From Oxynema aestuarii AP17 (GTDB lineage: Bacteria > Cyanobacteriota > Cyanobacteriia > Cyanobacteriales > Laspinemataceae), in NCBI RefSeq assembly GCF_012295525.1, contig NZ_CP051167.1, positions 5,557,299 through 5,621,298 on the forward strand: a stretch of DNA of 64,000 nucleotides, written 5' to 3'. Each line of letters opens with the position of its first letter. The first letter of the stretch is position 1. The notes below the pieces were generated by a model, which was not told the origin of the DNA, did no database searches, and saw nothing but the letters and a program-made list of their open reading frames with translations. Below are positions 25,503 to 44,708 of the stretch, one piece after another. The position numbers and the translations under genes were made by a program.

Positions 25503-25801
25503 TGCTCCCTAGAAAATCGCGAAAGAGTATGGCGACTCCATTCCACTCCATCGCCTCGGCTTTCATCCCGACACTCACGCTTCGCGTAGAGTGCGGGGCT
25601 TCCCGCCGATTCAGCTAAAAAACAGGAATAAATCTACAAACCTGCCGATCTTGGAGGCCATGACTGCCCCCGAGCCAACCCGAAACGGGACAAAAGCAAG
25701 ATCGATGTTGTCCCGGTGTCTTCGAGGTGATGCCTCGCCATGACAACCCTTTCAAAACTACAACCAATTCCCCCGAATTTCCAGAAAAGCGGCGATCGCC
25801 C

Positions 25802-26617: not shown

Positions 26618-26720
26618 AGTTTGGGGAAGTTTTGGGACGCGGGAGCCAAGAGGGGGGAGGGGAGTAGAAAGTCTGGGGTGCGGGCGTCTTGCCTGGTCGA
26701 TCGGAAACAGAGGCTCTATC

Positions 26721-26764
26721 GAAAATCTTAAAATCTACAATCTACAATCTACAATCTACAATCC
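26721..26764. repeat. heptanucleotide tandem repeat (aatctac x5)
   Basis: gaaaatcttaaaatctacaatctacaatctacaatctacaatcc, immediately 3' of the HEAT-repeat gene. Confidence 0.5.
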
Positions 26765-29098
26765 CCACTCTGCTACGATTTTTTCGGCAAACTGGCGAAC
26801 CGCAGGATCGGTATCTTGGGTCTGGCGATCGCGCAAAATTTGTACGGTTTCGGGACGATCGCCATAGCGATCGCACAAACATTCTAAAGCCGTTTGTCGG
26901 GGATTGAGTTTGCCATCTTCCGGCGATTTAAACGGGTCTTGGGTGGCGCGATCGCGCAGAAATTCAAATAATAAACCCTCGTCACTCATGCCTCGGGCGA
27001 GATATTGAACGGCGGCATGACGGACGAACGAATCTTCATCTTTAATGGCCCGTTCTTTGAGAAGGGCGATCGTTTCTGGTAGTTCGATCCAGCCGCGAAA
27101 GAGTTCTTTAATCGCCGCCAATCGAACGGCCCAATTTTCATCAGATCCGGCACAGTTTTTGAGTATTGAAAATGTTTCCGAATCGTCAAACCATCCGGCA
27201 GCCAGTTCTTGCAACGCCACGATCCGCACGTCCCAATCGGGATCGGACTCGACCCGCTCTTGCAGTAAGGTCAGCGTTTCCGGGCGACCGTAATATCCGG
27301 TGGCGAGTTCGCTGAGGGCAGCCATTTTAACATCGGAGCTGGAGTCTTCGACGGCCAAGGTTTCGAGGGTTTCGATCGTATCGGTTTCGCCTTTCCAACC
27401 TTTGACGAGTTCGTGAAGGGCGGCTTCGCGCACTTGCCAAGCGCGATCGCCCGTGGTGGTACGTTGCAGGAGACTGAGGGTTTCCGGGCGATCGAACCAT
27501 CCGGTGACCAGTTGCTCGACGGCGGCGATGCGCACCTGCCAATCGGCATCAGTTTGGGTGCGATCGCCCAGCCAGGGGGCGGTGTCGGGGCGATCGCACC
27601 CTTGGGCGGCCACGGCTTGCACGGCGCTGACGCGCACTTGCCAGGTTTCCTTGGGCGTCGCGCACTGTTTGAGCCAGTCGAGGCGATCGCCGGGGGTGAT
27701 TCTCATGCTGGCGATCGCCTCGATCGCCCGTCGGCGCACGTGCCAATCGGCATCGGTAGTGGCGATTTCGCGCAGTAATTTTTCGACCCTTGCTTCGATT
27801 TCCGGTCGATTGAGCCATTCGGCGGCCAGTTCGCGGACGATGCTGCGACGCACGCGCCAATCGGCATCTTCCCGGGCGAGGGTTTGCAGGACCGAGAAGG
27901 TTTCGGGGCGATCGGGGTAGGTGTGGGCGAGTTCGCGGGCGGCTGTTTCGCGCACGTCCGGTTCGCGATCGCCCGTAGCGAGGGTTTGCAGGAGGGAGAA
28001 GGTTTCGAGATCGTCTCGATAATGTTGGGCCAGGGCTTCGACGGCGGCTTCGCGTACCAACCAGTCGCGATCGTCTTTAATCAGGGTTTTGAGTAAGGGT
28101 TCGGTGGCGGAATTTTTGGGGGCGTAGGTGGCCAGTCCGCGCAGGGCACTGGCCCGGGTAATGTCGGAACCGGGGGTTTTGGCGAGGGTTTCGAGCCACT
28201 GGAGGGTCTCGGGATCGCGGTTCCAGCCTCGGGCGATTTCGTCTACGGCGCTCATGCGGATCGAGTCGTAGGCGTCGGACTGGGCGAGGGTTTTCAGCCA
28301 GTGGAGGGTCTCGGGATCTCCGGGAGAGAGGTTGGCGATCGCGCTGACGGCTTTGAGGGCGATCGGGAAGCGACGGTCGGCGACGCCGCGATCGCGTAGG
28401 AACGCCGAAGGGGTATCGCACAACTGCCGGAGGCGATCGCGCACGGTGGCGGTGAGGGGAGCCATTTCGGCGCGATCGCCGCGACTGGCGAGGCAGGTGG
28501 CGGCGAGGAACAGGTTGAGGAAATTGGCGTTTTCGCCGTCGAGGTGGAGTAAATAGTCGATCAGTTCGCCAGCCAGTTCGCGATCGGCGATCGCCACAAT
28601 TTCTACGAGAATTTCGTGCCAGGTTTCGTCAAACCAGCGTTCGCCAAAAATCCGAGTTTTGAGGGTTTCGCGGGTTAAACTGTCCTCTACATTCGGACTT
28701 TCGAGGCGCTGGCAGACCGATTGGGCGTAGGCGAGCGCTTTCACTTTTTGCAAGTAAGCACGAGCGAGATCGGACCAACTCCACAGATCCGGCAACGGCG
28801 GTAAGTGCAGGTCCGCCCAAGATCTGGGAAAAACTTCGAGTTCCAGGGTCGGGCTTTGGGGGGTGAAGGCCGAGAGTAAGGTGGTTTTGACCGACGGGCG
28901 ATCGAGAAATTTTTGGAATGGTTCGCGATATTGGGCGATCGCCTCCGCCTCCAGCCCCGCATCCTCTAACTCCAACTGCACTAAGTGCAGAAAAATCGTG
29001 AAAGCCGCTTTGAGATTTTCCGGCTCCTCTGCCCCCACTATCGGCGGGTCGAGGAGAGGTTGAAACGTCAAACTAACAGCGTTGGCTACTCCCTGCAT
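26756..29098 (-). CDS. HEAT-repeat (PBS-lyase/E-Z type) domain protein, 780 aa
   Basis: At least 12 tandem ~31-aa units of the form D(W/P)xVRxxA(V/I)xxL(A/V)xxW (e.g. DWQVRIAAVEQLVTGW, AWQVREAALHELVKGW, DWDVRIVALQELAAGW). N-terminal non-repeat region. Confidence 0.85.
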   Translation of the reverse strand: MQGVANAVSLTFQPLLDPPIVGAEEPENLKAAFTIFLHLVQLELEDAGLEAEAIAQYREPFQKFLDRPSVKTTLLSAFTPQSPTLELEVFPRSWADLHLPPLPDLWSWSDLARAYLQKVKALAYAQSVCQRLESPNVEDSLTRETLKTRIFGERWFDETWHEILVEIVAIADRELAGELIDYLLHLDGENANFLNLFLAATCLASRGDRAEMAPLTATVRDRLRQLCDTPSAFLRDRGVADRRFPIALKAVSAIANLSPGDPETLHWLKTLAQSDAYDSIRMSAVDEIARGWNRDPETLQWLETLAKTPGSDITRASALRGLATYAPKNSATEPLLKTLIKDDRDWLVREAAVEALAQHYRDDLETFSLLQTLATGDREPDVRETAARELAHTYPDRPETFSVLQTLAREDADWRVRRSIVRELAAEWLNRPEIEARVEKLLREIATTDADWHVRRRAIEAIASMRITPGDRLDWLKQCATPKETWQVRVSAVQAVAAQGCDRPDTAPWLGDRTQTDADWQVRIAAVEQLVTGWFDRPETLSLLQRTTTGDRAWQVREAALHELVKGWKGETDTIETLETLAVEDSSSDVKMAALSELATGYYGRPETLTLLQERVESDPDWDVRIVALQELAAGWFDDSETFSILKNCAGSDENWAVRLAAIKELFRGWIELPETIALLKERAIKDEDSFVRHAAVQYLARGMSDEGLLFEFLRDRATQDPFKSPEDGKLNPRQTALECLCDRYGDRPETVQILRDRQTQDTDPAVRQFAEKIVAEWGL

Positions 29099-29584
29099 CG
29101 GTGCTTACTCCGCGATCGTCCTCTGCTCATCCGAGTATAGCCCTTCGTCCCGTTCGTGTCGCTATTCGAGCCAGCCCGAACCCCGGACTCCGGACATCCT
29201 ACTCACCTCCCCCACCCGCCAGAAATTCAGTCACCGGGCGATCGCGATTCCACCGCTTCTTACCTTGCCGACAATAACCGCTTTAAAATATAGCTATCCT
29301 CTCTAAGTTGTTTCATCCAGCGATCGTCAGGCATCCCTGTAGGGAAACAGAATTGCCGTATCCCTAAAAATCATGAATTTTACAACAACATTCGTGATAG
29401 CCATCTAAGAGACTTTTTATCAAGAAAATCTCAAAGAATCTAGGGGTTTGCTTACCAAACTCCTACAGGATCCTCAAACATGACTCTTAATGTTTATTTT
29501 ATAAACAATCTCCAAAAGAAATACAGCATTTTCCTCTGCTCTGCAAGACATTTAGATCCCCCTAAATCCCCCTTGAAAAGGGCG

Positions 29585-29660
29585 ACTTTCCTCGTTCCCC
29601 CCTTACTAAGGGGGGTTAGGGGGGATAAAAACTATCCCTCATCAGACGCCCGCGTGCTGT
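29585..29660. repeat. left ~75-bp inverted repeat bracketing the Uma2 gene pair
   Basis: The reverse complement of 29585-29660 matches 30904-30980 with only a few mismatches (acagcac[g/t]cggg[c/t]gtctgatgagggatagtttttatcccccctaacccccttag...). Contains an internal G/C hairpin ccccccttactaagggggg. Confidence 0.7.
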
Positions 29661-29685
29661 AACTTAAAATCACCTCAAAACAAAA

Positions 29686-30264
29686 ATGAATACAATTACA
29701 ATTGATTTAAATTCAATTACCCCAATTGATGACGAACAATTTTATCAACTTTGTCGCGCCAATCCCGAACTCAAATTTGAACGCAACGCCAATGGAGAAA
29801 TCCTCATCATGTCGCCGACCGGAGGAGAAACAGGGAATTGCAATATTGAGATTGCCGCCGATTTTGTCTTTTGGAACCGCCAAACCAAATTAGGGAAATT
29901 ATTCGATTCTTCCACCTGTTTTAAATTGCCAAATGGCGCCAACCGTTCTCCCGATTTGGCTTGGGTGAAGGTGGAGAGATGGGAGGGACTGACGGCGACA
30001 GAAAAAGAGAAATTTCCACCCCTTGCACCGGATTTTGTCTTGGAGTTGAAGTCACCCACAGACCGCCTCAGCACTTTACAGGCTAAACTCGAAGAATATA
30101 TCGAAAATGGGGTGAAATTAGCTTGGTTAATTGACCGAGAAACAGATCGCGTCGAGGTCTATCGAACGGGACGGGATAAGCAGGTTTTCGAGAAACCAGC
30201 CACTTTATCTGGAGAAGAAATTTTACCCGGTTTTGTTTTATCTTTTGAGGAAATTTGGAAATAG
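29686..30264 (+). CDS. Uma2-family (DUF820) putative restriction-endonuclease-like protein, copy 1
   Basis: 192 aa. ELKFERNANGEILIMSP, PDLAWVKVERW, PDFVLELKSPTD, KLEEYIENGVKLAWLIDRETDRVEVYR. These match the Uma2 PD-(D/E)XK-like signature blocks. Confidence 0.85.
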   Translation: MNTITIDLNSITPIDDEQFYQLCRANPELKFERNANGEILIMSPTGGETGNCNIEIAADFVFWNRQTKLGKLFDSSTCFKLPNGANRSPDLAWVKVERWEGLTATEKEKFPPLAPDFVLELKSPTDRLSTLQAKLEEYIENGVKLAWLIDRETDRVEVYRTGRDKQVFEKPATLSGEEILPGFVLSFEEIWK

Positions 30265-30313
30265 ACTTTTGATTTAAAAGCGAATTTAACTTTTATTTTA
30301 ATAAATCCAAAAA

Positions 30314-30892
30314 ATGAATATAATTACTCTTGACTTAAAACCGCTTTGTGCGATCGATGACGAACAATTTTATCAACTTTGTCGCGCCAATCCCGAACTC
30401 AAATTTGAACGCAACGCCAATGGAGAAATCCTCATCATGTCGCCGACGGGAGGAGAAACAGGAAACTGCAATGCAGAATTATTAATCGAATTTGGCATTT
30501 GGAACCGCCAAACCAAATTAGGGAAATTATTCGATTCTTCCACCTGTTTTAAATTGCCAAATGGCGCCAACCGTTCTCCCGATTTGGCTTGGGTGAAGGT
30601 GGAGAGATGGGACGGACTGACGGCGACAGAAAAAGAGAAATTTCCACCCCTTGCACCGGATTTTGTCTTGGAGTTGAAGTCACCCACAGACCACCTCAGC
30701 ACTTTGCAGGCTAAACTCGAAGAATATATCGAAAATGGGGTGAAATTAGCTTGGTTAATTGACCGAGAAACAAATCGCGTCGAGGTCTATCGACCGGGAC
30801 GGGATAAGCAAGTTTTTGAGAAACCAGCCACTTTATCTGGAGAAGAAATTTTACCCGGTTTTGTTTTATCTTTTGAGGAAATTTGGAAATAG
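30314..30892 (+). CDS. Uma2-family (DUF820) putative endonuclease, copy 2 (tandem paralog)
   Basis: 192 aa, ~90% identical to copy 1 at DNA and protein level. Differences are concentrated in residues ~3-15 and ~52-66 (NIEIAADFVFW vs NAELLIEFGIW). Confidence 0.85.
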   Translation: MNIITLDLKPLCAIDDEQFYQLCRANPELKFERNANGEILIMSPTGGETGNCNAELLIEFGIWNRQTKLGKLFDSSTCFKLPNGANRSPDLAWVKVERWDGLTATEKEKFPPLAPDFVLELKSPTDHLSTLQAKLEEYIENGVKLAWLIDRETNRVEVYRPGRDKQVFEKPATLSGEEILPGFVLSFEEIWK

Positions 30893-30903
30893 TTATTAAA
30901 TAT

Positions 30904-30980
30904 ACAGCACTCGGGTGTCTGATGAGGGATAGTTTTTATCCCCCCTAACCCCCTTAGAAAGGGGGGGACGAGGGAGAAAA
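30904..30980. repeat. right inverted repeat partner of 29585-29660
   Basis: See the left repeat. Near-identical in reverse orientation. Confidence 0.7.
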
Positions 30981-31202
30981 ATACTGTAGTTATCCTATGC
31001 GAGTCGTGACCTTGATTTCCAACTATTTTAGGATGGCTCTATAGACCTCTAAAAAAGTTGCTGCAAGCTGCTATTTTTCAAGAGATTTGGGGTGATTTTG
31101 TTTCATGATGCAAGAGCGATAAGCAAAAAACCCGGTGTCTTCAGATTGTAATTGCAAGTAACTAAACTACCGTAAATAGTCGTCATCACAATTTCAAAAG
31201 AA

Positions 31203-33548
31203 TCATTCCTCTAACAAACGTTGTAACTCCTGTTCCGTAAATGGGTTTTTATCGTTACGGAGGGAATAAATCCATTCTTTTCGCCAAAACTGTGCTGAGT
31301 TGTTATTAATTGAATCGAGAAATGCTTGGAAATCTTCTATTGCCCCTTCAATGTTTCCCGTCAGCGCTCTTGCCAAACCGCGACTATCTTGATAGACTGC
31401 ATTTTCTGCTTCTAAACTGACTGCTGTTTCACAAGCAAACAGCACTGCAGCCGCGCGACCTTGGAGCGCACCAAAACGACACAGGGTATTCCAAGAACTA
31501 GCCTTTTTTACATTCGGATCGAGATTTTGAGCTTCTTTAAACAAGGCAATTGCTTCATCTATTTCTCCCTTTTTTGCTGATGATTCGCCTTTCTTGAATT
31601 TTTCAATGGCAGCCAAGTAGCGAACAGCCATTTCGGGCTGTTTATATTGTTCATCACTGTTGTCGGAAATTAGATCGATATCCGGATTGAGGTTCTGTGC
31701 TTCTTTAAATTTGGCAATCGCTTTATCGAGTTGCCCCTCTTTCACTAATTTAGTTCCTTCTTCATGTTTTTTATCAGCCGCGAATTGCTTGGCAACAGTT
31801 GCTGCGTCTGTCTCTACTTCTGCAGTGCTCAGATTGAGATCGAGATTAGGGTCGAGAGTTTGCGCTTCTTCAAATCTAGCAATGGCTTCATCGAGGTTTC
31901 CCTCCCTCGCTAACGTGGTTGCTTCTCCACGTTTTTTCACAGCAGTAAATTGATTAGCAACTATTTCTGCATCTGTCTCTACTTCTTTAGTATCAGGATT
32001 GAGATCGAGATTAGGGTCGAGAGTTTGTGCTTCTTTCAATTTGTAAATTGCTTCATCGCGTTTTCCTTCGAGAACCAAATTTTCGGCTTGTTTGACTAAG
32101 GCGGGGACTGCTTTTCGCTGAGAATCGAAAGTTAATTTTAGATTCCACTGTTTTGCTCGCTCGAATTTGTGAATTGCTTCCTCGAACTTTCCTGTTTTAA
32201 CTAGTTGTTCGCCTTGGGCAACTAGAGAAAGTGCAGATGCTTGCAATCGTTGAGGGTTCTGGCAAGATTCTAATTGACTGAATCGATCTGGTCGGCTAAT
32301 ATTATATTCCTCAAGCCAGGTGCAACCACGGTTTATCAGGTCGGGTAAATTCAGATTCCATAATTTCACGGTACTATCTTCACTGCCAGATACCAAGGTT
32401 TTTCCATCCGGGCTAAATGCTAATGCATAAATTGGACCGTTATGAGATAAAAAAGTATGAATTAAAGTACTGTCGGGCTGCCACAATTTCACCGTATTAT
32501 CGGAACTGCCTGATGCGATAGTTTTGCCATCGGGACTGAAGGCGATTGCATTCACTTCACTAGCATGGCTTTCGAGGGTAGCGATTAAACTGCCATCAAG
32601 ATTCCACAGTTTGACCATTTTATCCTTACTGCCTGATGCAATGGTTTTGCCATCGGGACTGAAGGCGATTGTATTAATCTCACTAGCATGACCTTCGAGA
32701 GTAGCAATTAAACTGCCATCAAGATTCCACAGTTTGACCATTGCGTCTGCACCCCCTGATGCGACGGTCTTGGCATCAGGACTGAAGGAGATCGCATTAA
32801 TCTTGCTACTATGGCCTTCGAGAGGAAATGAGGTAATAGACTGGCCATCCTTATGCCACACATGTACTTTTTTGTCGGAAGTAGCTGATAACACTTTTCG
32901 ATCGTCGTCACTAAAAGCTACTGCCAAAATTGAACTCGTATGTTCTGGAAAATTTCTAATTAAGCTACCATCAAGGTTCCAGAGTGCGATCGTTTTATCC
33001 GAACTGCCTGATAGGAGAGTTTTTCCATCCGAACTGAATGTTAGTGTGTTAATGTAGTTTTTATGACCTTGTAGAGTCGTGATTAGAGTACCGTCACGCA
33101 GCGATAATTTCACTGTGTTATCCCTACCGCCCGATGCAATGATTTCTCCATTTGGGCTGAATGCCACTGACCAAACAGAATCTCCATGAGTTGTAAGGTT
33201 AGGAATTGAAGGGGTATTTTTCCGCCAAAACTTCACCGTATTGTTATCACTACCAGAAATAATAGTCTTTCCATCGGGACTAAATCCTACGGTTCTAACT
33301 TTATGAGTATGACCTTCGAGGGTTTTAATTAATTTGCCATCAAGTTTCCACAATTTAACTGTTTTATCATCACTACCGGAGACTAAAGTTTTACCATCTG
33401 GGCTGAATGCGACTTCTCTAATCGCCAATGTATGAGCTTTGATAGTGTTGATTGAAGTGCCGTCGCGCCGCCACAAATTTATGGTGCCATCCCAACTTCC
33501 CGATGCTAATAATTCGCCATTTGGGCTGAATGCGACTATCAACTCCAT
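31203..33548 (-). CDS. WD40-repeat (14-15 blades) plus C-terminal TPR-like repeat region; C-terminal portion of a frameshifted NTPase-WD40-TPR gene
   Basis: Repeated GH...(A/V)FSPDG(K/E)(T/I)(I/L)(A/V)SGS.D.T(V/I)KLW units. The C-terminus has four EAIxKFEEAQTLDPNLDLN TPR-like units. The N-terminus overlaps the upstream ORF in another frame. Confidence 0.8.
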   Translation of the reverse strand: MELIVAFSPNGELLASGSWDGTINLWRRDGTSINTIKAHTLAIREVAFSPDGKTLVSGSDDKTVKLWKLDGKLIKTLEGHTHKVRTVGFSPDGKTIISGSDNNTVKFWRKNTPSIPNLTTHGDSVWSVAFSPNGEIIASGGRDNTVKLSLRDGTLITTLQGHKNYINTLTFSSDGKTLLSGSSDKTIALWNLDGSLIRNFPEHTSSILAVAFSDDDRKVLSATSDKKVHVWHKDGQSITSFPLEGHSSKINAISFSPDAKTVASGGADAMVKLWNLDGSLIATLEGHASEINTIAFSPDGKTIASGSKDKMVKLWNLDGSLIATLESHASEVNAIAFSPDGKTIASGSSDNTVKLWQPDSTLIHTFLSHNGPIYALAFSPDGKTLVSGSEDSTVKLWNLNLPDLINRGCTWLEEYNISRPDRFSQLESCQNPQRLQASALSLVAQGEQLVKTGKFEEAIHKFERAKQWNLKLTFDSQRKAVPALVKQAENLVLEGKRDEAIYKLKEAQTLDPNLDLNPDTKEVETDAEIVANQFTAVKKRGEATTLAREGNLDEAIARFEEAQTLDPNLDLNLSTAEVETDAATVAKQFAADKKHEEGTKLVKEGQLDKAIAKFKEAQNLNPDIDLISDNSDEQYKQPEMAVRYLAAIEKFKKGESSAKKGEIDEAIALFKEAQNLDPNVKKASSWNTLCRFGALQGRAAAVLFACETAVSLEAENAVYQDSRGLARALTGNIEGAIEDFQAFLDSINNNSAQFWRKEWIYSLRNDKNPFTEQELQRLLEE

Positions 33549-35541
33549 CTATATGACCCTTGAGGGTTGTAATTAAGGTGCCGTCAGGTCGCCACAATTT
33601 CACGGTTTTGTCCGAACTACCTGATGCAATGATTGCCCCATCTGGACTGAATGCTACTGCATAAACTACATCCTTATGACCTTCGAGGGTTGTAATTAAG
33701 GTGCCGTCAGGTCGCCACAATTTCACGGTTTTGTCCGAACTACCTGATGCAATGATTGCCCCATCTGGACTGAATGCTACTGCATAAACTACATCCTTAT
33801 GACCTTCGAGGGTTGTAATTAAGGTGCCGTCAGGTCGCCACAATTTCACTTTCTTGTCCCAACTGCCAGAAGCCAAAATTTCCCCATTCGGGCTGAATGC
33901 TACTGCCCTAACTTGATCTGTGTGACCTTCGAGGGTGTTAATTAAGGTGCCATTGGTCTGCCACAACTTCACTGTTTTATCCCGACTGCCTGATGCAATG
34001 ATTTTTCCATCTGGGCTGAATGCTGTTGCCCAAACCCAATGGGTATGACCTTCAAGACGGTTGAACTCCTCAATGTCATAAACTACTTGTTGCAATGCCA
34101 TGATGGGATGCATTTGCGTTGCGACAGTATGACCTTGGGCTTCTAAGTCTTGCAATTTTTGGGCAGTTTTTAAAGCTTCGACTAAGGCTTCAATTTTCTG
34201 GTTGGAATTAAAAAATTCTCGGCTTTTGAGACTCATGGCTAGGATTTCCGCATTGATTTCCCGGCGTTTGGCGTCTCTCGCGAGAAAAATTGCTGTCGCA
34301 GTCGCGGCAGAGAGAGCGAAAATAAAGGTTAAAGCTCCTGCCAAACTGCGTTGCAACAGTTTCACTCGCGCCCGTTCCGCCTGTTGTTTCCCGGCTTCGG
34401 CTTCGGCGAGGCGTCGTTCGAGGTCGTAGTGATACCGTTGCCGGATGGGTTCGACGAGGTAATCGTGGACGAGTTGGTAGCAGTCTGCGGCGGCGTCGAT
34501 CCAGTGTACGACTAAGCCGGAACCGACGAGGACGGTTAAAATCGCGTCTTGCAAGTGAGGGGCTTGAGGTCTGGTCGCCGCGTCTAACTCTAAGGCGGCT
34601 TGGAGGTCGGCATAAGTGCGGCTGGGACGGGTGCCTTTGTCGTCGGTTAAGGCGGCGAGGACTTTCCAGGCGGCTTCGATGTTGGGCGGGCCGCAGTCAG
34701 CTACTGCGGTTTCCAGCCATCGTTGTACGAGGGTGGTTTTGGGTTCGTCGCCGAGGTGGCGGTAGCGGTCGAGGTCGGTGATGTTCTCGGCTTGCAGTTG
34801 GGCGCCGACGATTTGCAGTTCGATGGGGCGGACGGCATCGACTTCGCTGGCGAGGTCGGCGACGACGGCATCGATTAACTCGGGTTGTAAGGACAAATGC
34901 GCTCGTTGGCTCAATTCGAGGATGACTTTACGGGCGCTGTCGGCGTCGAAGTTGCCGAGATAGTAACGATATTTGGGGTTTAACAGGTCGCCCCGGATGT
35001 CGGCGACTTGGGTAAAGCGCTCGAATTCTAGGAGTTCGTGTAAGTAATCTTGCCTTAAGGAAAGGATGATTTTGACGAGGGGAATGGTTTTGGCGTCGAG
35101 GCAGCGTTCGAGAAATTCGTAGAACTGGCGGCGTTGTTTCGGTTGGGGACAAGCTAAGAAAAATTCCTCAAATTGGTCGAAAATTAGCACGGTTAGCCAG
35201 TGGTTCGCCCCGTTGCGCCGTAATTGTCCTTCGATCGCCTCCAAACTGTCCCAATGGGCGTCCGGTTGCCCCATGATTTCCGCCAATGCCGCCCCTAATT
35301 CTTCTGTCCAGGTTTGGCGATCTCGTTCCCGGTCGGACTGAGGCTGGAATAGCGCACCCATTCCGTCTCGCAGTTCCTTGACCTTATGCCATAAATACGG
35401 GTCAGCCTGATCGGGACGTAAGCAAGCTACCCCATTCGGGATGGCTTTAGATGGGGCGCATCCACTGTTACCCCCACACACCGGACAGGGGTTTTGTTTA
35501 TTGAAACTCCGAAGACTTACCGGGGAGGTCATAGCCCGCAC
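33418..35541 (-). CDS. STAND/NACHT-like NTPase remnant (Walker B and winged-helix region, no P-loop) fused to 5 WD40 repeats; N-terminal portion of the same disrupted gene
   Basis: LTVLIFDQFEEF (Walker-B-like) and LVKIILSLRQDYLHELLEF (NACHT-like) motifs, but no GxxxxGK(S/T). An N-terminal Cys cluster (CPVCGGNSGC). Then WD40 units (HTHWVWATAFSPDGKIIASGSRDKTVKLW...). Confidence 0.7.
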   Translation of the reverse strand: MRAMTSPVSLRSFNKQNPCPVCGGNSGCAPSKAIPNGVACLRPDQADPYLWHKVKELRDGMGALFQPQSDRERDRQTWTEELGAALAEIMGQPDAHWDSLEAIEGQLRRNGANHWLTVLIFDQFEEFFLACPQPKQRRQFYEFLERCLDAKTIPLVKIILSLRQDYLHELLEFERFTQVADIRGDLLNPKYRYYLGNFDADSARKVILELSQRAHLSLQPELIDAVVADLASEVDAVRPIELQIVGAQLQAENITDLDRYRHLGDEPKTTLVQRWLETAVADCGPPNIEAAWKVLAALTDDKGTRPSRTYADLQAALELDAATRPQAPHLQDAILTVLVGSGLVVHWIDAAADCYQLVHDYLVEPIRQRYHYDLERRLAEAEAGKQQAERARVKLLQRSLAGALTFIFALSAATATAIFLARDAKRREINAEILAMSLKSREFFNSNQKIEALVEALKTAQKLQDLEAQGHTVATQMHPIMALQQVVYDIEEFNRLEGHTHWVWATAFSPDGKIIASGSRDKTVKLWQTNGTLINTLEGHTDQVRAVAFSPNGEILASGSWDKKVKLWRPDGTLITTLEGHKDVVYAVAFSPDGAIIASGSSDKTVKLWRPDGTLITTLEGHKDVVYAVAFSPDGAIIASGSSDKTVKLWRPDGTLITTLKGHIDGVDSRIQPKWRIISIGKLGWHHKFVAARRHFNQHYQSSYIGD
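33565..33850. repeat. perfect 126-bp tandem duplication (x2.3) encoding one 42-aa WD40 blade
   Basis: gttgtaattaaggtgccgtcaggtcgccacaatttcacggttttgtccgaactacctgatgcaatgattgccccatctggactgaatgctactgcataaactacatccttatgaccttcgagg occurs twice identically, with a third partial copy. Confidence 0.8.
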
Positions 35542-35813
35542 CCTCCGAAGTCGAGTTCAAGTTGCTGGGTTTTCGGTGCTGTTTTGGTTTGGGCGCAACC
35601 CTTTAGATCTTCAAATTCAAGCCGCCCCACCTTCCGCCACCAGCGATCGCACCGCAAGCAGTGAAGCGAAGCCGGATAATTGCCCTGGGGGTGGAGTTCC
35701 AGGCGAGTCTCGCGGCATCCGCAAGATGCACACCCGTGAATATGGGGAGGTAATTTTTTTAATCCCCGGTATCCCGGTCGGGATTCCAAAGAAGGTGATA
35801 TTATGTTTTTCAT
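35529..35813 (-). CDS. small zinc-ribbon-like ORF, possibly an out-of-frame N-terminal piece of the NTPase-WD40 gene
   Basis: HGCASCGC...HCLRCDRWW (CxxC...CxxC). Ends 13 nt inside the next ORF in a different frame. Confidence 0.3.
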   Translation of the reverse strand: MKNIISPSLESRPGYRGLKKLPPHIHGCASCGCRETRLELHPQGNYPASLHCLRCDRWWRKVGRLEFEDLKGCAQTKTAPKTQQLELDFGGCGL

Positions 35814-36217: not shown

Positions 36218-36574
36218 TCATTGGAGATTTTCTTGAGCTTTTTCTAAGGCAATAGTTAACCCATCGGCTAACCTGACGACCTCGGACTGCACCCCATTAC
36301 CTGAAAAATCCCCATCACGGAATAGGGCCAACAGGTACCGATCGCGCTCAGTTTCGGAGAATTTCGCCGAGAGGGGGTCCCGGTTCGCGGCTGTATTCGC
36401 ATAAATGCAGCAAGAAGGAGCGAGTCTGACGATCGCCCCTGGGGATTCTCTATGGAAAATTTTAGTCCAGAGGAGAGCGAGTTGGATCGCCGCGATCGCC
36501 CTGTCAGGACTGGCGGCGACTCGTTGGAGTTGACCCGTCGGATGGTGGTGATCGCGTGGTGCAGACCAGACCAT
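36218..36574 (-). CDS. hypothetical protein
   Basis: 118-aa ORF overlapping a second ORF in another frame. The C-terminal part is plausibly protein-like. Weak call. Confidence 0.2.
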   Translation of the reverse strand: MVWSAPRDHHHPTGQLQRVAASPDRAIAAIQLALLWTKIFHRESPGAIVRLAPSCCIYANTAANRDPLSAKFSETERDRYLLALFRDGDFSGNGVQSEVVRLADGLTIALEKAQENLQ

Positions 36575-36699
36575 CGAAGGGGTTTAGAAGGGTGGGACAT
36601 CCTCGCCGGGTGTAAGTTGTCAGAATCATTCGGGGGGTCCTTTTTAAATAATCAGTATAAATAAAAGGGCGATCGCAGTTGAGAGGCGATCGCCCCTGG

Positions 36700-36927
36700 T
36701 TAGTCGTTAGCAGTTTTGATAAGGTCCCCCGGTTCGCACTGCAACAGTTCGCAGAGTCGGGTCAGTTTTTCGTGATCTAGTCCTGGCGGGACAATATCCG
36801 AATTTTTATATCTACTTGCCGTGGTGCGGCTAACCTCCAAGATTTCCGCGAGTTCCCCTACGCTTACCCTCTTAAGCGCCATCAACGCTCGCAGGTTCCA
36901 GTAAATCTCCATAACGGTTGCCATCAT
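36700..36927 (-). CDS. XRE-family (Cro/CI-type) helix-turn-helix transcriptional regulator
   Basis: LKRVSVGELAEILEVSRTTASRYKNSDIVP...LTRLCELLQCEPGDLI. HTH_XRE pattern, including the C-terminal Lxx LxCxxxDL segment. Confidence 0.7.
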   Translation of the reverse strand: MMATVMEIYWNLRALMALKRVSVGELAEILEVSRTTASRYKNSDIVPPGLDHEKLTRLCELLQCEPGDLIKTAND

Positions 36928-37353
36928 ATATCATTCCTCTCTGCTATTGTTCCACGGGGCGGGTTATTTGATGTGTTCAGCGAGTCAGCCCGCTCCTTTC
37001 ATTGTAACCCCTTTGGGTCCTGCTATAATCCACTATATAGGACAAATAACCTTTATAAATTGACAAATATCCCATGCTACGCTACATTAAAATATTGGAA
37101 CCGACAAGACCCCCAGAGACTCCCGGAGTAACCCGGTAAACCAAATCTTGTCCCTGCGATCGACTCGGAATCCTGCAAAAAAAACGAGACCCCATAGCCC
37201 GAAAGCTACAGGGTCCCACCTTACGGGAGATTTCTCCCCCATGAACCGAACATTGACAACCGAATAATCATTTTCATGACCGTATCGGTCTAGTCCTAGG
37301 CGCGCCAACGCTTTGGACCGTATTTCAGTTCAAGTAGTTTTTCAACTAACACT

Positions 37354-37761
37354 ATGACTACTCTATCAATTTCAAGCCCCAAGTGCATGGGATTTTACTC
37401 CCAGGGACTCCAAGATAAGCTCTATCCCTTTGTTGAGAACGGCCAGAGGCTAACACTTGACGATGCCATCCGCCTGATCCACCTATCCAGCGAAGGTGCT
37501 TGGTGGGCGATGCAAAAAGGAATGGACCAGGCGATCGGCCAAATCATGAGTGACCTCGAAGCCGACTCTATGGATTGCGTTCCCTTTGACGGCTTTGATT
37601 CCGACGCTGATGAGTTCCGGGCCCTCAAACTCGAACTCACCGAATGGTTAGCCCTAGCCCGGTGGAGTTCGGAACTGGCTGAACTGCGGCTCAATGATTA
37701 CACCCGAGCCAAAGTCAGCGAGATGGCTGCACAGTCGCCTCCAATCTGGGAGGTACTCTGA
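37354..37761 (+). CDS. hypothetical protein (first of three translationally coupled small ORFs)
   Basis: 135 aa. Its stop overlaps the next start (TGATG). No known motifs. Confidence 0.4.
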   Translation: MTTLSISSPKCMGFYSQGLQDKLYPFVENGQRLTLDDAIRLIHLSSEGAWWAMQKGMDQAIGQIMSDLEADSMDCVPFDGFDSDADEFRALKLELTEWLALARWSSELAELRLNDYTRAKVSEMAAQSPPIWEVL

Positions 37762-38054
37762 TGCAACTACCCAACAAGCTGGCCCCCTTTATTCAGCTAG
37801 ATAACCTCTGCTACGAAGACAAGCTCGACCTCCTAATCGTTGCCACCCAAGCTCTAAAGCAGTGCCACTCTAATAGCCATTACGAAATCGACCTGCTTAA
37901 CGCCCTCGAAAATTCAGACTGTACGCAGGACGCCTTTGAGGGCATCACCGAAAGTCACGAATTTCTCGAAGTGACCCTCACCGAGGTGGAATGGATCCAG
38001 TTCTCCCAGGCTGTTTTAACAGCACTCAAGTTGGTGTTTGAGGTCGCGAAATGA
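37761..38054 (+). CDS. hypothetical protein
   Basis: 97 aa. Start overlaps the previous stop; its stop overlaps the next start (ATGA). Confidence 0.4.
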   Translation: MQLPNKLAPFIQLDNLCYEDKLDLLIVATQALKQCHSNSHYEIDLLNALENSDCTQDAFEGITESHEFLEVTLTEVEWIQFSQAVLTALKLVFEVAK

Positions 38055-38233
38055 ACAACGTTGAGGAGCGAACCATTCATTGGGAGTCGGTCCTGATGGC
38101 TACCCCACTCCCCGGCGAATTAGTGACCTATGTCGCCACCATCCTCGTTCAAGATGAAAACTGGGGTTTTGATGCCCGGACCCGTCAGCAGCAGGCTATC
38201 ATGGCCCGCGCTGCTCAGTCGGTGAGCCTTTAG
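38051..38233 (+). CDS. hypothetical small protein
   Basis: 60 aa. Coupled to the upstream ORF. Confidence 0.35.
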   Translation: MNNVEERTIHWESVLMATPLPGELVTYVATILVQDENWGFDARTRQQQAIMARAAQSVSL

Positions 38234-38579
38234 GAGGTACGCCGATGAGCATTTTCCTTGACATTGGCCTGACCCTCTCCCTCGGTTACCTCTGGTTTCT
38301 GGCATCAGTTGCCCGTGCTCCGGACTGCCGAACCGATAGGTGCGATCGCCTGGATCCGAGTGAAAAAAGACCCCTAATTTATCGATCATAACTTGAGGGA
38401 CATCTTTCACTCCCTAAGTATCTCATCAGCCCTCACAAGACCTGCCTAGGTACTTAGGCCAAAAACTACCTCAAATAACCTCAGATAGCGGGATAGAGAT
38501 AATTCTGTCCCGCTATTCTATTGGTTCCTTCTTAGACCTATCAAGACCTATACAGACCCATAAGGAGTTATACAGTCCT

Positions 38580-39590
38580 ATGCAACCTTACGCGCTTGAT
38601 TTAGGCAACGGATACACGAAATTCTCACGCGGCTCAACCCCTCAGATGATGCCCTCCTACATCTGTGAAGCCCTAGATCCATCAGAGTTGTGTGACGACA
38701 TTGGCTTCGGTGCAATTATCAAATACACCGTCGGAGAGCGCACTGACCTAGCCGGACGAATTTGGGCAGTAGGGGAAGCGGCTAAAACCTCATTCCCAGG
38801 CGCTTTCAGTCGAGTCGTTGATAGCGAGAATTCAACCGGGAAAGTTGATTTTGCACTTCATTTTGCACTCGCTGGACTCCCCCCAGTGAGTCACGGCCAA
38901 TACTTCCAAATTCCGATGATGTATGCCAGTCTGCCTGACCCGGCACTACTGGGAAGCGCCTTCAAACGAGCCATCATCGGCACTCACCGATACATTCATA
39001 ACGGAGTGGAGGCGAGCGCCACAATCGACGATGTGACCGTACTCCATGAAGGTCAGGGAGCTTTCGTTTATGCCTTATCCCAGGGGGTTTTTCCCAGTGG
39101 AACAGCTAACGCGATTATCGACTGTGGGAATGGCACGACAATCGCTCAAGCCTTCAGTCCCAACGGGCATTTAATCCCTAAAAGTCGCACAGTTTCTCAG
39201 GTTGGGGTGTTTCATTTGCTCAAGTCAATCGCCTCGGATATCCGGTTCAAAAAAACCCTCGGGAAAGAAGGGAATATTCACCTGATTCAGCAGGCAATCG
39301 AGGATGGCTCACTCAGCTACGGCTCCCGGAATATTGACATCAGCAACATCTACCGTGAACACCGCAACCGCTGGGCATCACAAGCCCTCAAGAAAGCCCT
39401 CGAAAAGTTTAGCACGATGAAGGATGAAATCGACACCATTTTATTGATTGGCGGTGGCGCAAACATCGTCAAAATCTTAGCCGAAAAGAAAGACTCGATT
39501 GAGTTATGCCCGGAGCCTCAGTTAGCCAATGTCTTAGGTTTAGCAAAGTTGGCAGACAAGCGAATCCGTAACCTTCGGAGTGTGGCGTAA
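38580..39590 (+). CDS. actin-like ATPase of the ParM/StbA plasmid-segregation family
   Basis: Phosphate-1 motif LDLGNGYTK at the N-terminus, phosphate-2 IDCGNGTTIAQ, adenosine motif LLIGGGANIV. 336 aa. Confidence 0.75.
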   Translation: MQPYALDLGNGYTKFSRGSTPQMMPSYICEALDPSELCDDIGFGAIIKYTVGERTDLAGRIWAVGEAAKTSFPGAFSRVVDSENSTGKVDFALHFALAGLPPVSHGQYFQIPMMYASLPDPALLGSAFKRAIIGTHRYIHNGVEASATIDDVTVLHEGQGAFVYALSQGVFPSGTANAIIDCGNGTTIAQAFSPNGHLIPKSRTVSQVGVFHLLKSIASDIRFKKTLGKEGNIHLIQQAIEDGSLSYGSRNIDISNIYREHRNRWASQALKKALEKFSTMKDEIDTILLIGGGANIVKILAEKKDSIELCPEPQLANVLGLAKLADKRIRNLRSVA

Positions 39591-39805
39591 TGGGCAAAAA
39601 ATTAACCCTCCGGACTGAGCTTATCCCCTTGGTTGAATCCTTCGCCAGTGCTAAAGGGGACGACTCCCTTGGAGCGGCGATGAATCGGCTGATTTATCTG
39701 GGATTGAAAGCTGAAGGATTTATCCCTCATGCCACCCATACAAAAGGTGGCAATACTTCCCCCAACAATGACGACTTAGAAATACTCGGAGTCATTGACT
39801 TATGA
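39590..39805 (+). CDS. small putative ribbon-helix-helix DNA-binding protein (ParR-like adaptor candidate)
   Basis: 71 aa. KKLTLRTELIPLVESFASAKGDDSLGAAMNRLIYLGL fits a beta-strand, helix, turn, helix pattern. Overlaps the parM-like stop (TAATG). Position matches the parMR order. Confidence 0.35.
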   Translation: MGKKLTLRTELIPLVESFASAKGDDSLGAAMNRLIYLGLKAEGFIPHATHTKGGNTSPNNDDLEILGVIDL

Positions 39806-40089
39806 ACTACAAAATTACCACCCTTATTACCTGCATAGTCGGTTCAATGCTCACCATGATCCTCGTCCTCGGTGCGCTTGAACCCCAGGTCGATTCAGCC
39901 CGGATGATGACCATTGCCATCTTATGCGGCATAGGGTCAGCTATTGCAAACATAGTGTTTCAACGGCGGCGCTGTCCCCCAGCTTCCGACTCCCTCCAGA
40001 GCCTTCTGCGCGGAGGGCGACTTTCACCGGCGCAGCAATTCACCATCCTGGATGCGATCGCCATCTTGGACGAGCGAGAAAAGGCGTAA
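39802..40089 (+). CDS. small integral membrane protein
   Basis: Two hydrophobic helices (ITTLITCIVGSMLTMILVLGAL; MTIAILCGIGSAIANIVF). Overlapping start and stop. Confidence 0.4.
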   Translation: MNYKITTLITCIVGSMLTMILVLGALEPQVDSARMMTIAILCGIGSAIANIVFQRRRCPPASDSLQSLLRGGRLSPAQQFTILDAIAILDEREKA

Positions 40090-40197
40090 CAACCGGGAAA
40101 CCAACCACTGTAACCATTGAGATTCCGTGGGTTGGGTTTCAGATGTAACCAACAGATTTAACCAACCCCACCCCCTGAAAAATAGGAGATTAAGCCC

Positions 40198-41295
40198 ATG
40201 ATGACGCCATTCGGTGGGAGTTATCTGGAGATAGAGGAAGACTTGCCAGACCTCCAAGACTCCCCCGATGAAACATCTAATTTGCCAGATTTGCTCAATC
40301 CTCCTCCCCTGGAGGCAGACCCCGCACCCACCGTAAAACCCTCAGTCAATCATGCCCGGTTATGGCTGATTATCGGAACGATAGGGGTGGGGTTAGCCGT
40401 TTCAGCCATCGCCCAAAATCAACCCCAATTTAGCCAAATTTCTCTCCCCCAACTCAACCCGCAGACAGGCCAACAAACCCACCAAAAACCTATCTGCCGC
40501 GAGGGGGAACAATCGATGGCGGGTTGTATCCCCTTGCCAGCCCTTGACCCGGCTGAGATGAGGCGGAATGAGTTGCTGGCAAAAACCCTGATAGAAACCT
40601 CCATGCAGCAGACGGCAATCGACCGGGCAAGGCGGGATAACCTGTTGGCTCTATTCGCACCCAACCATAAAGAGGGAGATTACACTCCCCTGGATATTAA
40701 GTTAGTGCGAGAGATGGCTCGACAATCCCAAAACTTGAGGGAATTGGGCCAATTTGAATATTCCGGTGAAGCCTCAATTATTGATATCCCTCGGGTCTAC
40801 AATTCCGACGCCCGTGCGGTTGTTCTAGCAGCCCTGACCCGGATTGGTGAGCAGAGTTTAGTCCAGTCATTCTTAGCCCAACAACTCCAGACTCTCACCA
40901 ACGAACTGAACGAGATTTTAGCCCCGACGATGGGGGAAGTAACCGACAGCAACCGCGCCACATTTGAGCGCCTATCCAGCGAGATTGATGCGGTAAACGA
41001 CGCAATCCGGGCCAGCGCCGGAGGAAATACCCCGGAACCCATCAACCTCGCCTACCTGGCTTCGTTGATGGAGCAACTCACCCTGGAATCAGCCAACCAG
41101 TTGAGCCGTGAAGACTATATGCGCCTGCGGATGGAGGCGCGGCAACAGGCCATCACCGAGGAGATGGAACGCCAAAAACAACTCCAGGAGATTGAGCGCA
41201 TCCGCCAACAAAGCGGGATTGCCCTCCCCAGCAGATCGCGTAGCGTCTCGGAACGAGAATCGCCCACAGGAGGCCCACCTGATGAGCCGAACTAA
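40198..41295 (+). CDS. membrane-anchored protein with acidic N-terminus and long coiled-coil/Gln-rich ectodomain
   Basis: One transmembrane helix (LWLIIGTIGVGLAVSAIA). Predicted helical C-terminal 250 aa. Its stop overlaps the next gene's start by 14 nt. Confidence 0.5.
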   Translation: MMTPFGGSYLEIEEDLPDLQDSPDETSNLPDLLNPPPLEADPAPTVKPSVNHARLWLIIGTIGVGLAVSAIAQNQPQFSQISLPQLNPQTGQQTHQKPICREGEQSMAGCIPLPALDPAEMRRNELLAKTLIETSMQQTAIDRARRDNLLALFAPNHKEGDYTPLDIKLVREMARQSQNLRELGQFEYSGEASIIDIPRVYNSDARAVVLAALTRIGEQSLVQSFLAQQLQTLTNELNEILAPTMGEVTDSNRATFERLSSEIDAVNDAIRASAGGNTPEPINLAYLASLMEQLTLESANQLSREDYMRLRMEARQQAITEEMERQKQLQEIERIRQQSGIALPSRSRSVSERESPTGGPPDEPN

Positions 41296-44700: not shown

Positions 44701-44708
44701 CAAATGCC

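What the first reader, a model, noticed from the sequence alone, without database searches (positions are those of the whole stretch)
31203..35813. Giant zinc-ribbon/NTPase-remnant/WD40(~20 blades)/TPR gene with missing P-loop and a frameshift
The two ORFs (707 and 781 aa) overlap out of frame. Around 33480-33550 the sequence departs from the neighbouring repeat units, which points to a frameshift. The NACHT-like module retains Walker B but lacks Walker A. An additional zinc-ribbon ORF (35529-35813) is out of frame at the 5' end. This is either a decaying STAND-type signalling gene, an assembly error inside repeats, or slippage-regulated expression.
Basis: partly seen in the sequence, partly recalled or inferred. 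Interest (0 to 1): 0.5.

Follow-up and report, generated by a model that had tools for sequence, protein, structure and literature searches.

The report
Plasmid-truncated, frameshifted STAND gene remnant
This is not one giant zinc-ribbon signalling gene. It is the broken remainder of an ordinary cyanobacterial STAND (nSTAND1-WD40-TPR) gene that lost its front end, ATP-binding loop included, where chromosome meets plasmid-derived DNA, and it also carries a 2-base deletion.

Summary
The sequence features are real, but "one giant gene with a zinc ribbon" is the wrong reading.

- **Junction.** Codons 1-78 (35532..35299, minus strand) are the N-terminal zinc ribbon of a CyRepA1-family plasmid replication protein. 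It is 65% identical to a Laspinema protein (E=4e-22), 90% in protein to a metagenomic one and about 92% in DNA. Similarity stops abruptly after TGGACAGAAGA (W-T-E-E, 35310..35300). nSTAND1 homology starts at residue 73.
- **What is missing.** About 630 N-terminal residues, Walker A included, and the rest of the rep gene are both absent from the window.
- **Flanks.** DNA below the junction (19359-32426) is syntenic with the Oxynema sp. CENA135 chromosome. DNA above it (36381-51699) resembles Oscillatoria acuminata plasmid pOSCIL6304.02.
- **ORF94.** The 94-aa ORF is a separate small gene whose TGA overlaps the next ATG (ATGA). It is not an out-of-frame exon.
- **Repeats and frameshift.** There are 14 WD40 units, not about 20. 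Unit 5 is 121 nt instead of 123, a 2-nt loss at 33531-33541, with no slippery motif.

Most likely this is a young pseudogene made by illegitimate plasmid-chromosome recombination. I could not test for assembly error because no reads were available. Interest is low.

The parts
35529..35813 (-). ORF94, a small protein with two CxxC pairs. It is a separate gene, translationally coupled to the next ORF (its TGA overlaps ATG 35532), and is probably the small companion gene of the plasmid rep operon.
   Evidence: ATGA overlap, GGAGG 9 nt upstream of the ATG. In the Laspinema sp. D1 contig a 58-aa ORF with two CxxC pairs sits in the same position, abutting the CyRepA1 gene. There is no detectable sequence similarity to it, no homologs in the word-index search and no Pfam or PHROG hit.
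35299..35532 (-). Codons 1-78 of the 704-aa ORF: the N-terminal zinc-ribbon domain (C16, C19, C25, C37; 35422-35487) of a CyRepA1-family plasmid replication protein. It is a 5' gene fragment.
   Evidence: Exhaustive HMMER search: P0121 (Laspinema, 1192 aa) 65% identity, E=3.9e-22. P0123 (1332 aa) is 91% identical in that search over residues 38-72 and 90% by tblastn over residues 38-78. P0121, P0123 and P0125 exceed the NCBIfam NF042913 CyRepA1 cutoff. About 92% DNA identity to L003 over 35508..35300 only. tblastn matches end at 35299 and the rest of the rep gene is absent from the window.
35300..35316 (-). Fusion junction. The codons Q-T-W-T-E-E are alignable to both parental families. The DNA breakpoint falls right after TGGACAGAAGA (35310..35300), so the microhomology is at most about 11 nt.
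   Evidence: The DNA alignment with L003 collapses after 35300. The nSTAND1 N-terminal profile aligns from residue 73, at 35316. CyRepA1 relatives read W-T-E-E / W-K-E-D / W-S-Q-E here, and nSTAND1 homologs read W-x-E/x-E/x-L-G.
34441..35299 (-). nSTAND1 STAND-NTPase remnant. It lacks about 630 N-terminal residues, including Walker A. Walker B (LTVLIFDQFEE) is at 35164-35196.
   Evidence: Pfam PF20703, 66.5 bits, profile positions 102-342 of 379. Homologs of 35-52% identity carry G-x-S-G-V-G-K-S about 40 residues upstream of the junction point. 79 of 120 homologs have a P-loop and the others were not examined. The intact Laspinema homolog has its P-loop at residue 588 and Walker B at about 697. 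No P-loop fragment occurs elsewhere in the window.
34066..34440 (-). Coiled-coil and predicted transmembrane linker (LAGALTFIFALSAATATAIFLA, 34279-34344). GC3 drops from about 0.66 to about 0.37 near 34330.
   Evidence: Sequence and alignment to P0001/P0015, which have the same hydrophobic segment. GC3 profile.
32358..34065 (-). Array of 14 WD40 units (enough for two 7-bladed propellers), read in two frames because of the frameshift in unit 5.
   Evidence: Repaired translation splits into 14 units, most of them 41 aa. Pfam WD40 E=8.8e-57 and 3.2e-115. Tandem repeat finder period 123.
33531..33541 (-). Frameshift site: GTT GAT AGT CGC, where the other units have two more bases. The net loss is 2 nt. 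Frame A then stops at 33418-33420. Frame B is open from ATG 33548.
   Evidence: Unit 5 (33591..33471) is 121 nt and the aligned units 2-4 and 6-9 are 123 nt; the MAFFT gap falls at this spot. Three-frame translation.
33562..33849 (-). Perfect direct repeat, 2.34 copies of the 123-nt WD40 unit. Units 3 and 4 are 100% identical. It ends about 20 nt before the frameshift site.
31203..32357 (-). C-terminal TPR-like domain of the STAND gene, ending ...NPFTEQELQRLLEE.
   Evidence: 76% identical to Oxynema sp. CENA135 JJD41_23180 (P0135) and to P0134. Both carry precomputed TPR Pfam families. Also aligns to the tail of Scytonema WA1_29940. dN/dS against Oxynema is 0.29.

Best explanation
The locus is the 3' remainder of a chromosomal nSTAND1-TM-WD40(x14)-TPR gene. 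This is a STAND NTPase of the kind assigned to cyanobacterial conflict and signalling systems. The remainder is joined in frame to the first 78 codons of a plasmid replication gene of the CyRepA1 family.

Shown:
- Sequence on the 5' side of the junction (HTH regulator, small zinc-ribbon ORF, rep start, then ParM, relaxase and so on) is plasmid backbone.
- Sequence on the 3' side is chromosome, syntenic with Oxynema sp. CENA135.
- The joint lies in a short stretch, W-T-E-E, that both parental genes happen to encode.

Inferred: a plasmid recombined illegitimately with the chromosome. This could have been a single crossover at that microhomology. Alternatively the plasmid integrated nearby and a deletion then ran from rep codon 79 to STAND codon ~630.

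Either route destroys both genes. The rep gene loses its Toprim-like and helicase parts. The STAND gene loses its N-terminal region and Walker A. Without Walker A a STAND protein cannot bind nucleotide, so it cannot switch or oligomerise.

A 2-nt deletion in WD40 unit 5 then split the remaining frame into the 704-aa and 781-aa ORFs. Because there is only one such lesion and dN/dS is low, the gene probably died recently. ORF94 is the plasmid operon's own small upstream gene and not part of the STAND gene.
For: - CyRepA1 origin of residues 1-78.
- Abrupt DNA breakpoint at 35300/35299.
- The plasmid module (small ORFs, HTH, rep start) is collinear with the Laspinema contig up to exactly 35299.
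- nSTAND1 homology starts at residue 73 and no P-loop is alignable.
- Intact homologs have about 630 residues before this point.
- The missing halves are not elsewhere in the window.
- Chromosomal synteny of 19359-32426 with Oxynema at 87-96% nt identity.
- Plasmid identity of 36381-43131 (91.5% to pOSCIL6304.02) and of 43164-51699 in pieces. In both PCC 6304 plasmids the Rep-type gene occupies the position of the chimera.
- 2-nt shortfall in unit 5.
- Neighbouring genes mostly match Oxynema gene lengths exactly (780, 271, 205, 185, 178 aa), and two genes in the plasmid-like block are about the same size as their PCC 6304 plasmid counterparts. There is therefore no pattern of indel errors.
Against: - No reads were available, so neither the join at 35299/35300 nor the 2-nt indel can be verified.
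- The reciprocal junction (STAND 5' part joined to rep 3' part) is not in the window, so integration and deletion cannot be told apart.
- The Oxynema ortholog is an N run over its P-loop and most of its WD40 units. No other close ortholog of the NTPase part exists in the collections searched. The pre-fusion sequence and the intact unit 5 are therefore inferred, not observed.
- Both reading frames are otherwise clean. dN/dS of the tail is 0.29, which is also what a still-functional gene would show.
Confidence: 0.72

Rival explanations
1. Assembly artefact. The contig wrongly joins a plasmid to the chromosome at 35299/35300, and/or the 2-nt shortfall in WD40 unit 5 is a consensus error next to a perfect 288-nt repeat. 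In the real genome the STAND gene would be intact.
For: The frameshift lies about 20 nt from the end of a perfect 2.34-copy repeat (33849..33562) that is longer than a short read. The ortholog in the Oxynema assembly is itself unresolved, with an N run over its interior. Plasmid/chromosome joins are a known class of mis-assembly (my own knowledge).
Against: The shared sequence at the join is at most about 11 nt, far shorter than assembler k-mers or read overlaps. The join is a clean in-frame fusion with no foreign filler. Two independent lesions fall in one gene, and the second is what one expects after the first. Other genes in the window that could be compared with Oxynema or pOSCIL6304.02 show no frameshifts. 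The indel site is not a homopolymer.
Confidence: 0.15
2. The lesions are real but the products are used. The 704-aa chimera (zinc ribbon, NTPase remnant, TM, 4 WD40 units) and/or the 781-aa WD40-TPR protein starting at ATG 33548 would be expressed from the plasmid rep promoter and act as a nucleotide-independent scaffold, decoy or dominant-negative partner of paralogous STAND proteins.
For: The fusion is in frame and has a good Shine-Dalgarno sequence. Both ORFs are long and otherwise free of stops. dN/dS of the tail is 0.29. An ATG opens frame B directly after its last stop.
Against: No homolog has this architecture: all large proteins sharing the N-terminal domain are Rep-type, and the one other long hit is a spurious Ig-repeat match. 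The split cuts a WD40 blade in the middle of a 14-unit array, which should prevent both propellers from closing (inference from WD40 structure). The low dN/dS mostly reflects divergence that predates the lesions.
Confidence: 0.08
3. Programmed recoding or slippage. Ribosomal +1 frameshifting, or transcriptional slippage, at the unit-5 site would restore a full-length protein at a regulated rate.
For: The two frames overlap by 131 nt, so a shift anywhere in 33548-33421 would give a fused product.
Against: Frame B is +1 relative to frame A, so the common -1 mechanism is excluded. There is no slippery heptamer, homopolymer run, in-frame stop or rare-codon pause at 33531-33541. A +1 shift would give a 40-residue unit, where the regular units are 41. 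A restored protein would still lack Walker A.
Confidence: 0.02

Closest known systems
nSTAND1-WD40(-TPR) STAND NTPases of filamentous cyanobacteria (Pfam PF20703), e.g. Scytonema hofmannii PCC 7110 WA1_29940 and the 1733-aa Laspinema sp. D2d homolog
   Same: Central nSTAND1 module with the hhhhDQFEEFF Walker B, a coiled-coil/TM linker, a WD40 array and the same TPR-like tail ending NPFT..EL..L. nSTAND1 proteins are treated as putative conflict-system sensors in PMC10907252.
   Different: The N-terminal region of about 630 residues and Walker A are missing, replaced by 78 codons of a plasmid rep gene. The WD40 array is interrupted by a 2-nt deletion. Best identities in the NTPase part are only 35-52%.
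CyRepA1 (Slr7037-type) cyanobacterial plasmid replication proteins, NCBIfam NF042913
   Same: The N-terminal Cys4 zinc-ribbon segment (65-90% identity to family members). The upstream operon layout is also shared: an HTH regulator, then a small ORF coupled to the rep start.
   Different: Only codons 1-78 are present. The DUF3854/Toprim-like and DEXDc helicase parts described for CyRepA (PMC10079941), which NF042913 models, are absent from the window.
Oscillatoria acuminata PCC 6304 plasmids pOSCIL6304.02 and pOSCIL6304.01
   Same: Backbone of HTH, small ORFs, ParM/StbA, hypothetical genes, relaxase and recombinase. Identity is 91.5% and 78.6% over window 36.1-43.1 kb. The Rep gene sits where the chimera sits.
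   Different: Those plasmids carry a DUF5906-type Rep instead of CyRepA1, and they are free circular replicons. Here the backbone is contiguous with chromosomal DNA.
Orthologous locus in Oxynema sp. CENA135 (JAEOXH010000003.1, gene ending JJD41_23180)
   Same: Same neighbours (Uma2, NNH2-HEAT 780 aa, LmeA, Germane, AccB-like, EF-P) and the same WD40-TPR tail (76% aa identity).
   Different: There the gene begins with a long N-terminal domain next to chromosomal genes (ATPase, TenA, LmeA, radical SAM) and has no plasmid DNA. Its interior is unresolved (N run).

Membership tests
nSTAND1 STAND NTPase (PF20703) | Significant match to the family profile | tested here: met
   66.5 bits against a gathering score of 27.1, but only profile positions 102-342 of 379.
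nSTAND1 STAND NTPase (PF20703) | Walker A P-loop (GxxxxGK[ST]) about 40 residues before the W..LG strand | tested here: not met
   A profile of homolog N-termini aligns only from residue 73. The apparent G-G-N-S-G-C-A-P-S is part of the CyRepA1 zinc ribbon. There is no P-loop fragment elsewhere in the window.
nSTAND1 STAND NTPase (PF20703) | Walker B hhhhDQFEE | tested here: met
   LTVLIFDQFEE at residues 113-123, window 35164-35196.
nSTAND1 STAND NTPase (PF20703) | C-terminal repeat sensor (WD40 and/or TPR) in one uninterrupted reading frame | tested here: not met
   14 WD40 units plus a TPR-like tail are present, but the frame is broken in unit 5.
CyRepA1 plasmid replication protein (NF042913) | N-terminal Cys4 zinc-ribbon segment as in family members | tested here: met
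   E=3.9e-22 and 65% identity to P0121; 90% (tblastn) to P0123. Both exceed the NF042913 cutoff.
CyRepA1 plasmid replication protein (NF042913) | Toprim-like (DUF3854) and DEXDc helicase core, the region the NCBIfam model covers | tested here: not met
   tblastn of six family members against the window finds nothing beyond 35299. Domain description from PMC10079941.
WD40 beta-propeller | Multiples of about 7 units of about 41 residues with the GH...WD pattern | tested here: met
   14 units, most of them 41 aa, after repair. Pfam WD40 E down to 3e-115.
Programmed ribosomal frameshift / slippage site | Slippery motif or homopolymer at the shift site, conserved in orthologs | tested here: not met
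   No such motif at 33531-33541, and the required shift is +1/-2. Conservation could not be tested because no ortholog covers unit 5.
Integrated plasmid (episome in chromosome) | Both chromosome/plasmid junctions identified | not testable with these tools
   Only one junction (35299/35300) lies in the window. Plasmid-like DNA runs at least to 51.7 kb, and the expected second junction is not in the window.

The most novel reading that the evidence does not exclude
The plasmid did not land here by accident. Recombining into a host STAND (putative defence or conflict) gene would knock out that sensor. The in-frame zinc-ribbon / P-loop-less STAND / WD40 product, driven by the rep operon's promoter and HTH regulator, would then act as a dominant-negative decoy against paralogous STAND proteins. 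That would be a plasmid-borne anti-defence strategy.
Probability: 0.04. Interest if true: 0.6.

Novelty: new member of a known kind. Interest (0 to 1): 0.22.

Why it matters
This is mainly a correction to annotation. The locus should be recorded as a disrupted nSTAND1-WD40-TPR pseudogene abutting a truncated CyRepA1 rep gene, not as a novel zinc-ribbon STAND architecture.

Its modest wider value is as a base-pair-resolved example of a cyanobacterial plasmid backbone (pOSCIL6304-like, with a CyRepA1 replication module) joined to the chromosome by microhomology. The join inactivates the plasmid's replication gene and a host STAND gene at once.

It also shows how a domain-architecture scan can mistake a fusion junction for a new multidomain protein.

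Tried and rejected
- **Degenerate P-loop?** I tested whether residues 1-72 are a decayed P-loop, because BLAST extends homolog alignments over 'VCGGNSGCAPS' against 'VIHGQSGVGKS'. Rejected: a profile of 79 homolog N-termini aligns only from residue 73, and the segment is clearly CyRepA1.
- **Missing halves elsewhere in the window?** tblastn with nSTAND1 and CyRepA1 proteins found none.
- **Word-index search with ORF94 plus the N-terminus.** No hits. Only the exhaustive HMMER search found the CyRepA1 relatives.
- **Looking for the source genome.** Exact-protein lookup of the Uma2 gene found nothing on record.
- **Looking for a close ortholog of the NTPase part**, to read the pre-fusion sequence and an intact unit 5. 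In genome contigs the best identity was about 50%. In metagenome contigs nothing was found. The Oxynema ortholog is an N run. I did not use the second metagenome scan, because six specific 8-mers had already failed.
- **ORF94 against the Laspinema 58-aa ORF.** BLASTP gives no alignment, so homology is not claimed. Only position, coupling and CxxC pairs are shared.
- **P0122** (3184 aa, 13 'stretches') is a spurious Ig-repeat hit.
- **Iterons or att-like repeats around 35.2-37.4 kb.** Nothing convincing.
- **Neighbouring 780-aa NNH2-HEAT protein as a second decayed STAND gene.** Rejected: it is conserved full-length in Oxynema with dN/dS 0.24.
Full report
**1. Observation**

On the minus strand, ORF 33418..35541 (707 aa from GTG) and ORF 31203..33548 (781 aa) overlap by 131 nt in different frames. 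A 94-aa ORF lies at 35529..35813.

Three-frame translation shows that the WD40 pattern leaves frame A at ...LKGHIDGVD and continues in frame B as VAFSPNGELLASGSWDG. Cutting the array into units gives 123 nt for every unit except unit 5 (33591..33471), which is 121 nt. A MAFFT alignment of eight units puts a 2-nt gap at GTT--GATAGTCGCATTC, window 33531-33541. With one placeholder residue restored, the protein has 14 WD40 units, most of them 41 residues long. That is enough for two seven-bladed propellers, not about 20 blades.

Pfam finds nSTAND1 (PF20703, 66.5 bits) on residues 98-364, matching only profile positions 102-342 of 379. Walker B (LTVLIFDQFEE) is present and no Walker A is found.

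**2. ORF94 is a separate gene**

Its TGA overlaps an ATG at 35532 (GGGCTATGACC). A GGAGG lies 9 nt upstream of that ATG. This ATGA overlap is the ordinary coupling of two genes in an operon, not a frameshift. The large ORF therefore most likely starts at 35532 and is 704 aa.

**3. Why the P-loop is missing**

nSTAND1 homologs are 35-52% identical. They include Scytonema WA1_29940, Potamolinea, Nostoc and Okeania proteins. They align only from about residue 73-75 (TWTEELG...) and carry G-x-S-G-V-G-K-S about 40 residues upstream of that point.

BLAST sometimes stretches the alignment so that the P-loop lies over CPVCGGNSGCAPS. A profile built from 79 homolog N-termini, however, aligns from residue 73 and not before.

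The word-index search with ORF94 plus residues 1-72 found nothing. An exhaustive HMMER search of 1.8 billion representatives with residues 1-72 found 10 proteins. The best are 1100-1330-aa proteins in which the match is at the extreme N-terminus:
- P0121 from Laspinema sp. D1: 65% identity, E=3.9e-22.
- P0123 from a JGI metagenome: 91% over residues 38-72 in that search, and 90% by tblastn over residues 38-78.

P0121, P0123 and P0125 exceed the curated cutoff of NCBIfam NF042913, 'plasmid replication protein, CyRepA1 family'. One other hit, P0122, is a spurious match to an Ig-repeat protein.

CyRepA proteins are cyanobacterial plasmid Rep proteins with a Toprim-like DUF3854 domain and a DEXDc helicase domain (PMC10079941).

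At the DNA level the window is about 92% identical to the metagenomic rep gene (L003) from 35508 to 35300. Similarity vanishes immediately after TGGACAGAAGA. L003 continues GAAGCGCCAGGAATGG (E-K-R-Q-E-W), while the window continues ATTAGGGGCGGC (L-G-A-A). tblastn matches of six CyRepA1-type proteins all stop at 35299, and nothing else in the 64 kb matches them. No second nSTAND1 fragment exists in the window either.

The 704-aa ORF is therefore an in-frame chimera. Codons 1-78 come from a plasmid rep gene and the remainder from an nSTAND1 gene. The joint lies inside W-T-E-E, a motif both families happen to encode at that point, so the microhomology is at most about 11 nt. In an intact Laspinema homolog of 1733 codons, the P-loop is at residue 588 and Walker B at about 697. 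About 630 residues of the STAND protein are therefore missing here.

**4. Context: the joint is a chromosome/plasmid boundary**

*Chromosome side.* The TPR-like tail is 76% identical to a 'partial' protein of Oxynema sp. CENA135. Its 1-Mb contig is collinear with window 19359-32426 at 87-96% nucleotide identity. The shared gene order is WD40-TPR tail, Uma2, a 780-aa NNH2-HEAT protein, LmeA, Germane, an AccB-like protein, EF-P and a PPIase.

In Oxynema the gene starts 5.1 kb upstream with a long N-terminal domain resembling that of full-length homologs. It is preceded by chromosomal genes that are absent from the window. Its interior is an N run.

*Plasmid side.* Window 36381-43131 is 91.5% identical to Oscillatoria acuminata PCC 6304 plasmid pOSCIL6304.02 (HTH regulator, small ORFs, ParM/StbA and others). 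Window 43164-51699 matches it in pieces (relaxase, recombinase). In both PCC 6304 plasmids the gene downstream of the HTH and small ORF, at the position of the chimera, is the Rep-type gene, there of the DUF5906 type.

A Laspinema sp. D1 contig carrying P0121 shows the order small ORFs, HTH_26, a 58-aa ORF with two CxxC pairs abutting the rep start, then CyRepA1. It is collinear with the window by tblastx up to exactly 35299. The 58-aa ORF shares position, coupling and cysteine pattern with ORF94 but has no alignable sequence.

**5. Mechanism**

*Shown:* a direct, filler-free, in-frame junction between plasmid and chromosomal DNA inside two genes, and a net 2-nt loss in WD40 unit 5.

*Inferred:* illegitimate recombination at the microhomology. 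This could have been a single crossover that integrated the plasmid. It could also have been integration nearby followed by a deletion from rep codon 79 to STAND codon ~630. Either event removes the STAND N-terminal region and Walker A. By established knowledge of STAND/AAA+ NTPases, this abolishes nucleotide binding and therefore switching. It also removes the catalytic parts of Rep.

The frameshift is then what one expects in a gene already dead. The gene has only one frameshift and no stops, and dN/dS of the tail against Oxynema is 0.29. Both points indicate recent inactivation.

**6. Rivals**

*Assembly error* cannot be ruled out without reads. The frameshift lies about 20 nt beyond a perfect 288-nt repeat. 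Against it:
- An 11-nt overlap cannot drive a mis-join.
- The indel site is not a homopolymer.
- Comparable genes in the window show no other frameshifts.

*Programmed recoding* is unsupported. The shift needed is +1/-2, no slippery motif is present, and only a 2-nt restoration gives the 41-residue unit of the regular repeats. A restored protein would still lack Walker A.

*A functional truncated or decoy product* is possible but has no supporting homolog.

**7. Comparison with known families and verdict**

The locus works like nothing new. It is a disrupted member of the nSTAND1-WD40-TPR family next to a truncated CyRepA1 gene. As a member of nSTAND1 it fails two defining features, Walker A and an intact frame. 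As a member of CyRepA1 it has only the N-terminal zinc ribbon.

Novelty is limited to a well-resolved example of a plasmid-chromosome fusion in an Oxynema/Laspinema-like cyanobacterium. Interest is low, at about 0.2.

Noticed in passing
window 29686-30264 and 30314-30892 (+): Two tandem Uma2-family (PF05685) genes of 192 aa each. The syntenic Oxynema sp. CENA135 locus has a single copy, so this looks like a lineage-specific tandem duplication.
   Followed up: partly
window 24261-25502 (-): A TnpB / IS605 OrfB-type gene (OrfB_IS605, Cas12f1-like TNB, HTH) lies between the LmeA and Germane genes. The Oxynema alignment skips this interval, so it is an insertion relative to Oxynema.
   Followed up: partly
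window 26756-29098 (-): A 780-aa protein has a NACHT N-terminal helical domain 2 (NNH2) followed by HEAT repeats but no NTPase domain. It is conserved at full length in Oxynema (94% aa identity, dN/dS 0.24), so it is a genuine NTPase-less architecture and not decay.
   Followed up: partly
window ~34330 (within the chimera), low-GC block 29.3-34.3 kb: GC3 drops from about 0.66 in the nSTAND1 part to about 0.37 from the TM linker onward. Intact Laspinema homologs show only a mild drop. dS of the WD40/TPR tail against Oxynema is 0.43, compared with 0.06-0.15 for most flanking genes (Uma2 copies 0.20-0.24). This hints at an older exchange of the sensor half of the gene together with the Uma2 genes.
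   Followed up: partly
window 33562-33849 (-): A perfect 288-nt direct repeat (2.34 WD40 units; units 3 and 4 are 100% identical). It is either a very recent duplication or gene conversion, or a spot where repeat copy number may be unreliable.
   Followed up: partly
window 36381-51699: A plasmid-derived block related to Oscillatoria acuminata PCC 6304 pOSCIL6304.02/.01 (HTH_26 regulator 36700-36927, ParM/Alp 38580-39590, relaxase and recombinase region). It carries an embedded Tn3-family transposase (46159-49185) and two serine recombinase/resolvase genes (49288-49935, 50313-51032).
   Followed up: partly
window 52776-62355 (-) and 55691-56830 (-): An RHS-repeat protein cluster (918, 516 and 1310 aa). 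The 516-aa protein ends in a NucA/NucB DNase domain. It is followed by a SUKH-1/HEAT protein that looks like an immunity gene, so this is a polymorphic-toxin locus.
   Followed up: no
L005 (Oxynema sp. CENA135 JAEOXH010000003.1) 6725-10000: The interior of the orthologous STAND gene is a 3.3-kb run of N, and the 3' piece is annotated as 'partial'. The only close ortholog therefore cannot be compared across the P-loop or WD40 unit 5.
   Followed up: yes
L004 5388-10529 and L001 1-10075: In a related metagenomic contig with a CyRepA1 rep gene and in pOSCIL6304.02 (DUF5906-type Rep), the Rep gene is followed by giant DUF4114-domain proteins. The window has none downstream of the rep fragment, which is consistent with loss of everything 3' of rep codon 78.
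   Followed up: partly
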